Source: an uncultured Bacilli bacterium
Lineage (GTDB): Bacteria > Bacillota_I > Bacilli_A > RF39 > UBA660
Direction: 5' to 3'
DNA length: 64,000 nucleotides
Assembly (NCBI GenBank): GCA_947627895.1
Contig: CANQXV010000001.1
Location: forward strand, 3,987 to 67,986
Shown here: in pieces, positions 31,729 through 32,722 of the stretch
Position numbering within the stretch: the stretch's first letter is position 1
Layout of the letters: each line of letters begins with the position of its first letter
Notes under the pieces: generated by a model
The model's database searches: none
What the model was told of the DNA's origin: nothing
Seen by the model: the letters and a program-made list of their open reading frames with translations, nothing else
Translations under genes and position numbers: made by a program

Positions 31729-32394
31729 TTATAAATTAATATAATCGTGTAGTTTTGTTAAACTTCTTTTTTCATATCTTGAAACTTTAACTTGATTTAT
31801 GCCTAGTTTTTCCGCCGTTTCGGCTTGAGTTAAGTCTTCATAATATCTAGAATATATAATTTCTTTTTCCATTGGGTTTAATGTCGCATCAATACTTTCG
31901 GTAAGTAAAATATGGTCATCGATATCAAAAGCATCCGGAGCGGCAATACTTTCATGAAGATTCCTACTTTCTTCTTTTTCATCATCCATTGAAACAATTG
32001 GCACAACACATTCCAGCGCTTGTTTTATTTCTTCGACATCATGACCTAAAAATTGAGCAATTTCAAGTAATGATGGAACCCATCCATTAAGTTGCGTTAA
32101 AATATCGCTGGCCCGTTCAATATCTTTTTTTAAATGAATAAGATCCCGACTTACCTTTACCATCTTGCTACAAGCTAACTTATACATTGCTCCTTTAATC
32201 GCCGGATAAGCATAACTCGAAAACTTAGTTCCTTTTTCAGCTCTATATTTTTTATAAGCATCAAGTAATGCTAACCACCCTACTTGATATAAATCATTTT
32301 TATCAACACCATAATAATTGTTATTAGCAATATACCATATTAACTTCGAATAACTTTGGAATAATTCTTCATTTTCTAAATTAAGAGTTGACAT
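31729..32394 (-). CDS. Sigma-70 family sporulation-type sigma factor (SigF/SigG-like), regions 2, 3 and 4 present
   Basis: Region 2 is YQVGWLALLDAYKKY and the region 4 HTH is QAETAEKLGINQVKVSRYEKRSLTKL. The ORF track extends the N-terminus to 32466, but that overlaps the upstream STAS gene, so a start near MSTLN (32394) or MLVNM (32406) is more plausible. Confidence 0.7.
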   Translation of the reverse strand: MSTLNLENEELFQSYSKLIWYIANNNYYGVDKNDLYQVGWLALLDAYKKYRAEKGTKFSSYAYPAIKGAMYKLACSKMVKVSRDLIHLKKDIERASDILTQLNGWVPSLLEIAQFLGHDVEEIKQALECVVPIVSMDDEKEESRNLHESIAAPDAFDIDDHILLTESIDATLNPMEKEIIYSRYYEDLTQAETAEKLGINQVKVSRYEKRSLTKLHDYINL

Positions 32395-32722
32395 ATTTAC
32401 GAGCATCCCTTTCTCTAGCAATAGTAGCAATATGCATTCCTTTAAAGAAACTATAAATGTTATCACTTACTTGACACATTAACATTTTACCTTTATTTTG
32501 CTTAATAATATATTTACTATTTAAAATAGCATCTCGTCCTTTAACATCAATATTAAGTAAATTACCAAAATTATAAACTAAAAGCTTAATATTATGCTTA
32601 CTTAATACAGGAAGTAAATAGTTTGTAATTTTATGACAAGTCTTCGCATTAAGGCTTCCATCTAAGCGTACATACAGGACACCATCCTCATACTTCGTAT
32701 CAATTTTTAACATATTTATCAC
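32381..32722 (-). CDS. STAS-domain anti-sigma-factor antagonist (SpoIIAA/RsbV-like)
   Basis: It is a 113-aa STAS domain (DGVLYVRLDGSLNAKT...LLNIDVKGRD) with a good SD (AGAAGGTGATAAAT). Confidence 0.65.
   Translation of the reverse strand: MINMLKIDTKYEDGVLYVRLDGSLNAKTCHKITNYLLPVLSKHNIKLLVYNFGNLLNIDVKGRDAILNSKYIIKQNKGKMLMCQVSDNIYSFFKGMHIATIARERDARKYVNS

What the first reader, a model, noticed from the sequence alone, without database searches (positions are those of the whole stretch)
31729..32722. SpoIIAA-like antagonist followed directly by the sigma factor with no SpoIIAB anti-sigma kinase
In Bacilli and Clostridia the order is spoIIAA-spoIIAB-sigF, often followed by spoVA. Here the STAS-domain gene runs straight into the sigma-factor gene. 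The ORFs overlap as annotated, and there is no room for a roughly 145-aa GHKL anti-sigma kinase. The cause could be a reduced or rewired partner-switching module, an anti-sigma factor encoded elsewhere, or a local deletion.
Basis: partly seen in the sequence, partly recalled or inferred. Interest (0 to 1): 0.55.

Follow-up and report, generated by a model that had tools for sequence, protein, structure and literature searches.

The report
Sporulation sigma operon lacking its anti-sigma kinase
In a large group of uncultured, small-genome gut bacteria (RF39-type Bacilli), the operon that switches on the first spore-specific sigma factor has lost the anti-sigma kinase SpoIIAB that is conserved in known spore formers. 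It keeps a SpoIIAA-like partner protein that has evolved without a conserved phosphorylation site, so this key developmental switch must work differently here.

Summary
On the minus strand, a 110-aa SpoIIAA-like STAS gene (32713..32381) overlaps by 14 nt a 221-aa SigF-like sigma gene (32394..31729). spoVAC-AD-AE and a terminator follow. No GHKL anti-sigma gene lies between them or anywhere in the window.

This is not a local deletion. About 78 of 80 species-level relatives have the same STAS-sigma-spoVA order. They are uncultured gut Bacilli, including RF39 genus CAG-460. SpoIIAB found nothing in 870 kb of flanks.

A published survey already notes that RF39 has reduced or no spoIIAB and spoIIE.

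New here:
- The SpoIIAA phospho-serine is Lys in the window and varies freely across the family, while the flanking Asp and Gly are near invariant.
- Both genes are under purifying selection (dN/dS about 0.2).
- A perfect Spo0A box precedes the operon in 78 of 81 loci.
- A forespore-type promoter precedes spoVAC in 79 of 81 loci.

Best reading: a lineage-wide two-gene derivative of spoIIA whose STAS protein no longer acts as a phospho-switch. How it controls the sigma is only inferred, whether by direct binding or through an unknown partner. I could not search whole genomes for an unlinked anti-sigma factor. This is a new variant of a known kind and moderately to highly interesting.

The parts
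32785..32811 (-). Terminator-like hairpin plus T-run (AAAGTGTAAAGTGGTTTACACTTTTTC) ending the upstream GLUG-protein gene and insulating the operon
   Evidence: Read from the sequence. RNAfold gives a hairpin at the same place in most relatives, about 20-30 nt upstream of the Spo0A-box region.
32756..32785 (-). Spo0A-box region: weak box TTTTGGCAT (32785..32777), consensus 0A box TGTCGAA (32772..32766), then the invariant TGTTTAAA
   Evidence: TTGTCGAAAGTGTTTAAA occurs once in the window. A strict TGTCGAA box lies within 150 nt upstream of STAS in 78 of 81 loci, against a background of 0.024 per 150 nt. Spo0A binding itself is inferred from the B. subtilis consensus.
32734..32761 (-). Sigma-70-like promoter candidate TTTAAA-16-TATTAT directly downstream of the 0A box
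   Evidence: Consensus scan. The -35 and -10 assignment is tentative.
32381..32713 (-). SpoIIAA-like STAS protein, 110 aa (maximal ORF starts at GTG 32722). Lys replaces the phosphorylatable Ser58
   Evidence: The AF2 model has pLDDT 94.8, and its best structural match is SpoIIAA 1THN_B at TM 0.90.
31729..32394 (-). Short SigF-like sigma factor, 221 aa (alternative start 32406 gives 225 aa; maximal ORF starts at 32466). It lacks the roughly 25-35 N-terminal residues of canonical SigF/SigG
31699..31727 (-). Forespore-type (sigma-F/G-like) promoter GTATA-N17-CATACTA, starting 2 nt after the sigma stop codon
   Evidence: GTATA-N17/18-CA(T/C)A(A/C)TA is present at this position in 79 of 81 loci.
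31245..31691 (-). spoVAC (probable start TTG 31682, 145 aa)
   Evidence: TIGR02838 137 bits and Pfam SpoVAC_SpoVAEB. The orthologue in L001 is called at 145 aa.
30278..31252 (-). spoVAD
   Evidence: PF07451 343.8 bits and NF006160 357 bits.
29927..30277 (-). spoVAE (SpoVAEB-type)
   Evidence: TIGR02839 107.5 bits.
29892..29923 (.). Bidirectional intrinsic terminator closing the operon after spoVAE

Best explanation
This is the spoIIA (sigma-F) locus of an RF39-type, genome-reduced gut bacillus, in a derived two-gene form that the whole lineage shares. The ancestral spoIIAA-spoIIAB-sigF operon has lost spoIIAB.

What the data show:
- The SpoIIAA orthologue and a shortened, strongly diverged SigF-like sigma remain. 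Their reading frames overlap, which suggests translational coupling.
- A conserved Spo0A-box promoter lies upstream, so the operon is still likely switched on at the onset of sporulation.
- A conserved forespore-type promoter drives spoVAC-AD-AE immediately downstream.
- The residue equivalent to SpoIIAA Ser58 varies freely, so the serine phosphorylation cycle appears to have been abandoned. A published survey reports both the SpoIIAB kinase and the SpoIIE phosphatase as reduced or absent in RF39.
- The STAS protein is under purifying selection and has its own set of near-invariant residues.

What is inferred: the STAS protein still has a partner. My preferred reading is that it acts stoichiometrically and without phosphorylation on the sigma itself, as a direct inhibitor or as a chaperone. 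The alternative is that it acts on an unrecognised non-GHKL anti-sigma factor. I put about 0.3 on direct STAS-sigma binding specifically.
For: Anatomy and identities.

Conservation:
- STAS-sigma-spoVAC-AD-AE occurs in about 78 of 80 species-level genomes. The distance from the STAS stop to the conserved sigma motif at residue 31 is 61-97 nt in the 57 loci where the motif search matched. A gut MAG at 50% identity shows the same order.
- Taxonomy: the titles are uncultured Bacilli or 'Tenericutes' MAGs and include Firmicutes bacterium CAG:460. CAG-460 is RF39 family UBA660 (PMC13155120).

No SpoIIAB:
- The best phmmer E-value was 2.7 over all ORFs of 40 aa or more in 870 kb (query validated).
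- No HATPase domain was found in the small window ORFs.
- No GHKL-sigma fusions appear among the best 150 family representatives.

Phospho-site:
- Ser58 aligns without gaps to Lys in the window protein.
- Column composition is S28 A11 V10 K8 T4 Y3 in 76 unique sequences, while D56 is 74/76 and G59 is 76/76.
- In 121 database clusters it is S67 A24 T7 K5 D4, with G59 at 121/121.

Functionality:
- dN/dS is 0.19 for STAS, 0.20 for the sigma and 0.09-0.12 for spoVA.
- The AF2 STAS model has pLDDT 94.8 and matches SpoIIAA at TM 0.90 and 30% identity, against 15% for RsbV.

Regulation:
- The Spo0A box is present in 78 of 81 loci.
- The forespore-type promoter is present in 79 of 81 loci.
- A terminator follows spoVAE.

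Selective divergence of the module: STAS reaches 33% and the sigma 38% of their NCBIfam equivalog cutoffs. spoVAC, spoVAD and spoVAE reach 82-84%, and SigE of a relative reaches 87-95% depending on the model.
Against: - I could not scan a whole genome. Absence of an unlinked SpoIIAB/RsbW-type protein rests on a KEGG-orthology survey of MAGs (PMC10868615), which could miss a divergent GHKL protein.
- Assignment of this particular window to RF39 is indirect. Its closest relatives (about 60% sigma identity) are unnamed rabbit-gut 'Bacilli' MAGs.
- More than half of the family members still carry Ser or Thr at the phospho-site, so phosphorylation in some sublineages is not excluded.
- Nothing here shows a physical STAS-sigma contact. 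The mirror-tree signal is not distinctive (partial r 0.32, against 0.25-0.35 for control gene pairs). The single STAS-sigma fusion protein (P0038) looks like a frame error. The AlphaFold fusion test was invalid.
- RF39 bacteria are uncultured, and the papers I consulted describe their sporulation only as a genomic prediction.
Confidence: 0.6

Rival explanations
1. A SpoIIAB/RsbW-type anti-sigma factor is encoded elsewhere in the genome. Ordinary partner switching persists, and only the gene order has changed.
For: Whole genomes could not be searched here. Ser or Thr is retained at the phospho-site in about 60% of family clusters. The region around the site (D56, G59, D61, A62), which faces SpoIIAB in the canonical complex, stays highly conserved.
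Against: spoIIAB and spoIIE are reported as reduced or absent in RF39 (PMC10868615). There was no hit in 870 kb around 83 loci. The phospho-site column is among the most variable in the protein and includes K, V, Y, D and A, even among closely related sequences. That is not expected if a kinase still used it. In the spore formers surveyed by Galperin et al. these genes are highly conserved (10.1101/2022.02.25.481979), and in B. subtilis and Turicibacter sanguinis they are adjacent (own knowledge).
Confidence: 0.2
2. The sigma has no dedicated post-translational regulator. It is controlled only by Spo0A-dependent transcription, and the STAS protein has an unrelated job, such as nucleotide or metabolite binding, and stays in the operon only by inheritance.
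For: There is no distinctive co-evolution signal between STAS and the sigma. STAS proteins with non-sigma targets are known, for example SypA and HmpV (PMC8256260).
Against: The two genes stay adjacent, usually overlapping or only a few bases apart, in about 80 species, including lineages where spoVA has moved away (L069, L070, L079). The STAS protein is still most similar to SpoIIAA itself. A set of family-specific invariant residues (K28, Y32, P35, K39, H40, K67) points to a conserved protein partner.
Confidence: 0.15
3. The genes are decaying relics of sporulation in a lineage that no longer sporulates.
For: RF39 genomes are reduced and lack several sporulation genes. In the papers consulted, spore formation in RF39 is only a genomic prediction.
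Against: The ORFs are intact in all loci examined. dN/dS is about 0.2 for STAS and the sigma and about 0.1 for spoVA. Promoter motifs are strictly conserved across species whose proteins are only 40-60% identical.
Confidence: 0.05
4. It is an assembly artefact, or a deletion private to this genome.
For: The source is probably a MAG contig.
Against: The same junction is found in about 80 independent species-level assemblies from different studies and hosts.
Confidence: 0.01
5. It is a general-stress RsbV/sigma-B-type module, or another non-sporulation module, and not a sporulation sigma locus.
For: The sigma is below every equivalog cutoff. SigB (92.6 bits) and FliA/WhiG (88.6 bits) are not far behind SigF (120.8 bits).
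Against: The best sequence and structure matches are sigma-F and SpoIIAA. A Spo0A box lies upstream and a forespore-type promoter plus spoVA lie downstream. In one relative, spoIIGA-sigE lies 2 kb upstream.
Confidence: 0.03

Closest known systems
Bacillus/Clostridium spoIIA operon (spoIIAA-spoIIAB-sigF) with the SpoIIE phosphatase
   Same: A SpoIIAA-fold STAS protein sits immediately upstream of a SigF-like sigma in one operon. There is Spo0A-box control, and spoVA follows downstream as in B. subtilis. The STAS protein is 30% identical to SpoIIAA, with TM 0.90.
   Different: There is no SpoIIAB gene. The Ser58 phospho-site is not conserved. SpoIIE is reported as reduced or absent in the lineage (PMC10868615). 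The sigma lacks about 25-35 N-terminal residues and scores at only 38% of the SigF equivalog cutoff. The promoter looks sigma-A-like with a 0A box, unlike the sigma-H type known for B. subtilis spoIIA. That last comparison rests on my own knowledge and was not tested.
RF39 sporulation gene inventory (Field, Bowerman and Hugenholtz 2024, PMC10868615)
   Same: [quoted passage not shown]
   Different: It is a presence/absence statement based on KEGG orthology only. The text I read (section 21 and term searches) does not describe the retained STAS-sigma pair, the loss of the phospho-site, selection, or the conserved promoters.
RsbV-RsbW-sigma-B and other partner-switching modules (BtrV/W, RsfA/B-UsfX)
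   Same: A STAS antagonist is genetically linked to a group-3 sigma factor.
   Different: Each of these includes a GHKL anti-sigma factor. Here none is found, and RsbV shares only about 15% identity with this STAS protein.
Sigma-SsdA/SipA of Actinoplanes missouriensis (PMC10733313)
   Same: A non-canonical arrangement in which a STAS domain is tied directly to a sigma factor. There the two are fused in one protein.
   Different: That system still uses an anti-sigma (GHKL-type) domain in SipA, which binds the STAS domain. No such partner is known here, and natural STAS-sigma fusions are not a feature of this family.
Non-canonical stand-alone STAS proteins (SypA, HmpV, RbaV; review PMC8256260)
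   Same: STAS-only proteins whose output is not the classical release of a sigma from an anti-sigma factor.
   Different: SypA and HmpV are still controlled by a partner kinase (SypE, HmpW), and RbaV is paired with the anti-sigma factor RbaW. None of them is encoded next to a sporulation sigma.

Membership tests
spoIIA partner-switching module (SpoIIAA-SpoIIAB-sigma-F) | STAS-fold anti-anti-sigma protein encoded next to the sigma gene | tested here: met
   Pfam STAS 33.8 bits. SpoIIAA chains match at E=1e-8. The AF2 model matches 1THN_B at TM 0.90.
spoIIA partner-switching module (SpoIIAA-SpoIIAB-sigma-F) | GHKL anti-sigma kinase (SpoIIAB) encoded in the operon | tested here: not met
   The genes overlap by 14 nt. 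There is no SpoIIAB-like ORF in the window or in 83 related loci, best E=2.7. No HATPase domain was found in small window ORFs.
spoIIA partner-switching module (SpoIIAA-SpoIIAB-sigma-F) | Conserved phosphorylatable serine (B. subtilis SpoIIAA Ser58) | tested here: not met
   The window protein has Lys. The family column is S, A, V, K, T, Y, D and others, with entropy 2.98 bits.
spoIIA partner-switching module (SpoIIAA-SpoIIAB-sigma-F) | SpoIIE PP2C phosphatase, and any unlinked SpoIIAB, elsewhere in the genome | not testable with these tools
   Only 64 kb of this genome and flanks of up to 10 kb in relatives were available. The literature reports both as reduced or absent in RF39.
spoIIA partner-switching module (SpoIIAA-SpoIIAB-sigma-F) | Spo0A-dependent expression at the onset of sporulation | tested here: inconclusive
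   A perfect 0A box (TGTCGAA) is conserved in 78 of 81 loci. Binding and timing were not tested.
SpoIIAA equivalog (NCBIfam TIGR02886) | Score at or above the curated cutoff of 114.75 bits | tested here: not met
   37.7 bits.
SigF equivalog (NCBIfam TIGR02885) and the SigB/F/G subfamily (TIGR02980) | Score at or above the curated cutoffs (321.45 and 234.35 bits) | tested here: not met
   120.8 and 134.4 bits. These are nevertheless the top-ranked models, and the best PDB match is sigma-F.
Group-3 sigma-70 family sigma factor | Regions 2, 3 and 4 present | tested here: met
   PF04542, PF04539 and PF04545 are all above their gathering scores.
RsbV-RsbW-sigma-B stress module | RsbW kinase adjacent; STAS protein of RsbV type; sigma of SigB type | tested here: not met
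   No GHKL gene. RsbV shares 15% identity against 30% for SpoIIAA. SigB scores 92.6 bits, below SigF at 120.8.
spoVA (DPA channel) operon | spoVAC, spoVAD and spoVAE(B) together behind a forespore-type promoter | tested here: met
   The scores are 82-89% of the equivalog cutoffs, so the products are slightly divergent.

The most novel reading that the evidence does not exclude
RF39-type bacteria control their first forespore sigma factor without any GHKL anti-sigma kinase or SpoIIE phosphatase. The SpoIIAA descendant has become a phosphorylation-independent regulator that binds the sigma directly, making a two-protein STAS-sigma switch. This short sigma may also be the only forespore sigma, doing the work of both sigma-F and sigma-G. 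Two observations prompt that last idea. A sigma-G-type promoter (GTATA-N17/18-CATAATA) sits directly behind its gene. In one relative, spoIIGA-sigE is not followed by sigG.
Probability: 0.2. Interest if true: 0.85.

Novelty: new variant of a known kind. Interest (0 to 1): 0.6.

Why it matters
The SpoIIAA/SpoIIAB/SpoIIE switch is the textbook mechanism that makes sigma-F active only in the forespore. A comparative survey of spore formers lists spoIIAA, spoIIAB and spoIIE as highly conserved in every firmicute lineage (10.1101/2022.02.25.481979).

A large clade of up to about 400 species-level genomes keeps Spo0A control, a SigF-like sigma, a SpoIIAA-like protein and spoVA, but not the kinase. 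If these bacteria do sporulate, cell-specific sigma activation can be achieved in another way.

That would give a natural minimal system for asking what SpoIIAB and SpoIIE are really needed for. It would also suggest a new activity for a STAS protein. There is a practical side too: marker-gene predictors of sporulation that require spoIIAB or spoIIE would misclassify these abundant gut bacteria.

Tried and rejected
The first run gave pTM 0.39 and STAS pLDDT below 50. The MSA was invalid because MAFFT had placed the STAS rows on the sigma region. Other mixes of rows never aligned both halves correctly, so I abandoned the test. It says nothing either way.

2. Rosetta-stone evidence. P0038 (STAS+sigma, 322 aa) has a near-identical unfused twin, P0050. 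It comes from a single 1.9-kb contig and even lacks the invariant Gly59. No other fusion appears among the best 150 representatives. The two long hits are duplicated or chimeric sigmas. I rejected this as evidence.

3. Mirror-tree co-evolution. The partial correlation for STAS-sigma is 0.32, no better than the control pairs. Inconclusive.

4. Looking up the window's own contig record by exact protein (P0001, P0121). Neither is on record, so the organism name is unknown.

5. Supplementary tables of PMC10868615, searched for per-family spoIIAB frequencies. The held file is truncated and has no match.

6. Searching the operon flanks for a conserved alternative anti-sigma gene. In the four loci I read (the window, L001, L051, L070), the upstream neighbours differ: GLUG, cohesin-like, a 460-aa protein of unknown function, and unknown proteins. 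The downstream neighbours differ too.

7. Rfam scan of the window. No hits.

8. Finding the evolutionary boundary between three-gene and two-gene operons. The capped searches returned only members of the two-gene family.

Full report
**Observation.** On the minus strand of the window, a STAS-domain ORF (maximal 32722..32381) runs into a sigma-factor ORF (maximal 32466..31729). The likely real starts are as follows.
- STAS: ATG 32713, 7 nt after the RBS GGTGA. This gives 110 aa, identical to database protein P0121.
- Sigma: ATG 32394 (221 aa), which best fits the N-termini of homologues, or ATG 32406 (225 aa, protein P0001).

The STAS stop codon (32383..32381) therefore lies inside the sigma gene, with an overlap of 14 or 26 nt. 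spoVAC (31691/31682..31245), spoVAD (31252..30278) and spoVAE (30277..29927) follow. A bidirectional terminator at 29892-29923 closes the operon. In detail: there is no space for a 145-aa gene.

**What the two proteins are.**
- The STAS protein passes the Pfam STAS threshold (33.8 against 22.6 bits).
- It aligns without gaps to the SpoIIAA chains of the PDB (1TID_B, E=1e-8).
- With a 121-sequence alignment it folds with pLDDT 94.8 and pTM 0.87.
- The closest solved structures are the SpoIIAA chains of the G. stearothermophilus SpoIIAA-SpoIIAB complexes (TM 0.90, 30% identity). RsbV and other antagonists share only about 15% identity.
- The sigma has regions 2, 3 and 4.
- It ranks SigB/F/G (134 bits) and SigF (121 bits) first. 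SigB scores 93 bits and SigG 83 and 73 bits.
- Its best PDB match is sigma-F of 1L0O (E=2e-27).
- Both proteins are far below the curated equivalog cutoffs, at 33% and 38% of them. The three spoVA products reach 82-84%. SigE of a relative reaches 87-95%, depending on the model. This regulatory pair has therefore diverged much more than its neighbours.
- The sigma starts about 25-35 residues later than canonical SigF/SigG (model coordinates). In the exhaustive search, proteins of canonical length appear only from about 150 bits downward.

**It is a lineage feature and not an accident.**
- The sigma belongs to a distinct family of proteins of about 213 aa. A profile of that family finds 425 representatives at E<=1e-30 among 50%-identity clusters.
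- In the species-representative genome collection, 395 stretches encode a relative. The best 80 come from 80 different species.
- In about 78 of these, a STAS gene abuts the sigma and spoVAC-AD-AE follows. A Hadza gut MAG at 50% identity shows the same gene calls.
- The distance from the STAS stop to the conserved sigma motif at residue 31 is 61-97 nt in the 57 loci where the motif search matched.
- Three 'Tenericutes' MAGs keep the STAS-sigma pair but lack spoVA downstream. In L070, which I read, ezrA follows.
- The record titles are uncultured Bacilli or 'Tenericutes' gut MAGs, Candidatus Onthocola, Clostridium sp. CAG:609 and Firmicutes bacterium CAG:460. CAG-460 is a genus of RF39 family UBA660 (PMC13155120).
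Its nearest relatives (about 60% sigma identity) are rabbit-gut MAGs. Its placement in or next to RF39 is therefore an inference.

**Search for the missing kinase.**
- I validated a SpoIIAB query against the PDB (1TIL_A).
- I ran it with all heuristic filters off against every ORF of 40 aa or more in the window plus 83 related loci, 870 kb in all. The best E-value was 2.7.
- Pfam scans of the small unannotated window ORFs show no HATPase domain.
- Whole genomes could not be searched with the tools available.
- The literature fills part of that gap. [quoted passage not shown] Turicibacter sanguinis has all three spoIIA genes.

**The phospho-switch looks abandoned but the protein is kept.**
- B. 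subtilis SpoIIAA Ser58 aligns to Lys in the window protein.
- Across 76 unique STAS proteins from the loci, that column reads S28 A11 V10 K8 T4 Y3 and others. Its entropy of 2.98 bits is among the highest in the protein. Asp56 (74/76) and Gly59 (76/76) are fixed.
- In 121 database clusters the column reads S67 A24 T7 K5 D4 C3, with Gly59 at 121/121.
- Closely related sequences differ at this one site (ESG, EAG, ETG, EQG, ECG). This is what relaxed constraint on a former phospho-acceptor would look like.
- The gene is not decaying. dN/dS is 0.19 for STAS, 0.20 for the sigma and 0.09-0.12 for spoVA.
- The family has its own invariant or near-invariant residues (K28, Y32, P35, K39, H40, N48, K67, G75). 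Several of them lie in helix 1 of the model (residues 27-39).

**Regulatory DNA.**
- Upstream of STAS, the motif TTTGTCGAA-N3-TGTTTAAA contains a perfect Spo0A box (TGTCGAA). It is present in 78 of 81 loci, against a background of 0.024 boxes per 150 nt.
- In the window it lies at 32773..32756. A weaker box one helical turn upstream and a terminator-like hairpin precede it. A sigma-70-like TTTAAA-16-TATTAT follows it.
- Between the sigma stop and spoVAC, GTATA-N17/18-CA(T/C)A(A/C)TA is present in 79 of 81 loci. In the window it lies at 31727..31699.
- From my own knowledge of the B. subtilis consensus sequences, this matches forespore (sigma-G/sigma-F type) promoters.
- The unit therefore still looks like a spoIIA-spoVA region: Spo0A-activated at the front and forespore-expressed behind.

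**Mechanism.**
- Shown: the kinase gene is lost from the operon across the lineage. The phospho-acceptor is not conserved. A SpoIIAA-fold protein and a SigF-like sigma are retained, under purifying selection and with overlapping or abutting frames that suggest translational coupling. The Spo0A-box and forespore-promoter motifs are conserved.
- Taken from the literature: spoIIAB and spoIIE are reduced or absent genome-wide in RF39.
- Inferred: the STAS protein still regulates the sigma, most simply by binding it directly and without phosphorylation, or through an unknown non-GHKL partner. I put about 0.3 on direct binding.
- How forespore specificity would then arise is unknown.
- Rivals: an unlinked divergent anti-sigma factor (0.2); STAS with an unrelated function and a sigma controlled only at the level of transcription (0.15); relic genes (0.05); a stress-type module (0.03); an artefact (0.01).

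**What did not work.**
- The AlphaFold fusion test was invalid because of MSA misalignment.
- The single STAS-sigma fusion protein (P0038) is probably a frame error.
- The mirror-tree analysis was inconclusive.
- The source record could not be retrieved.

**Novelty and verdict.** The absence of spoIIAB and spoIIE in RF39 has been mentioned in one sentence of a KEGG-based survey. The following are not covered in the parts of that paper I read: the retained two-gene module, the loss of the phospho-site, the selective divergence of the pair, the purifying selection, and the conserved Spo0A-box and forespore promoters. I rate the finding a new variant of a known kind. It would surprise sporulation specialists if whole-genome searches and experiments confirm it. 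The main caveats are that the genomes are uncultured MAGs and that sporulation in this lineage is unproven.

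Noticed in passing
L051:2380-5987 (a relative; rabbit-gut MAG CANQVV010000001.1): The order ftsA-ftsZ-spoIIGA-sigE lies 2 kb upstream of the STAS-sigma-spoVA operon. sigE (321 bits against a 339 cutoff) is not followed by sigG, as it is in B. subtilis. Together with the sigma-G-type promoter in front of spoVA, this raises the question of whether the lineage has a separate sigma-G at all.
   Followed up: partly
window 29927-32713 compared with L051:3133-3816: Divergence is very uneven. STAS and the sigma reach only 33% and 38% of their NCBIfam equivalog cutoffs. 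spoVAC, spoVAD and spoVAE reach 82-84%, and SigE of a relative reaches 87-95% depending on the model. The regulatory pair has evolved much faster than the rest of the sporulation genes nearby.
   Followed up: partly
P0038 (322 aa, NCBI, 1953-bp contig): This is the only STAS-sigma fusion protein found. It has a near-identical unfused twin (P0050) and lacks the otherwise invariant Gly59. It is probably a sequencing frame error and not a natural fusion.
   Followed up: yes
L069, L070, L079 ('uncultured Tenericutes' MAGs); L070:5648-8498: This sublineage keeps the STAS-sigma pair, the Spo0A box (seen in L069 and L070) and no spoIIAB, but spoVA is not downstream. In L070, the one locus I read, ezrA, a cysteine desulfurase-like gene and a thiI-like gene follow. 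The pairing is therefore independent of the spoVA linkage.
   Followed up: partly
window 32785-32811 and the equivalent position in the loci: A terminator-like hairpin sits at a fixed distance upstream of the Spo0A box. In many species the stem has the same sequence (AAAGTGTCAA...TTGACACTTT). The window has a compensated variant (GTGTAAA/TTTACAC), and other lineages have unrelated hairpins. It is probably an insulating terminator, but the sequence conservation is unusual.
   Followed up: partly
window 48400-64000: A block of conjugation or type IV secretion genes. It includes a VirD4/TraG-type coupling protein (55500-57725), a TraG/VirB4-like P-loop ATPase (60939-62726), an M23 peptidase (58507-60900), and small membrane proteins that resemble pilins by sequence inspection. 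It looks like an integrated conjugative element.
   Followed up: partly
window 39350-46849, 32820-34985, 23524-25971, 22980-23549, 7606-9189: Large surface proteins and their anchoring machinery. These are a 2499-aa protein with an M26 (IgA1 protease-like) C-terminal region, a 721-aa GLUG-repeat protein directly upstream of the operon, a SpaA-type pilin with a thioester domain, and two sortases.
   Followed up: partly
window 1-64000: No Rfam family reaches its gathering score anywhere in the 64-kb window. GC content is 30%.
   Followed up: yes
window 21799-22959: A D-alanyl-D-alanine carboxypeptidase (DacA/DacF-like) lies 9 kb from the operon. In B. subtilis, dacF lies directly upstream of spoIIAA (own knowledge). 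I did not check whether this gene carries a forespore-type promoter.
   Followed up: no
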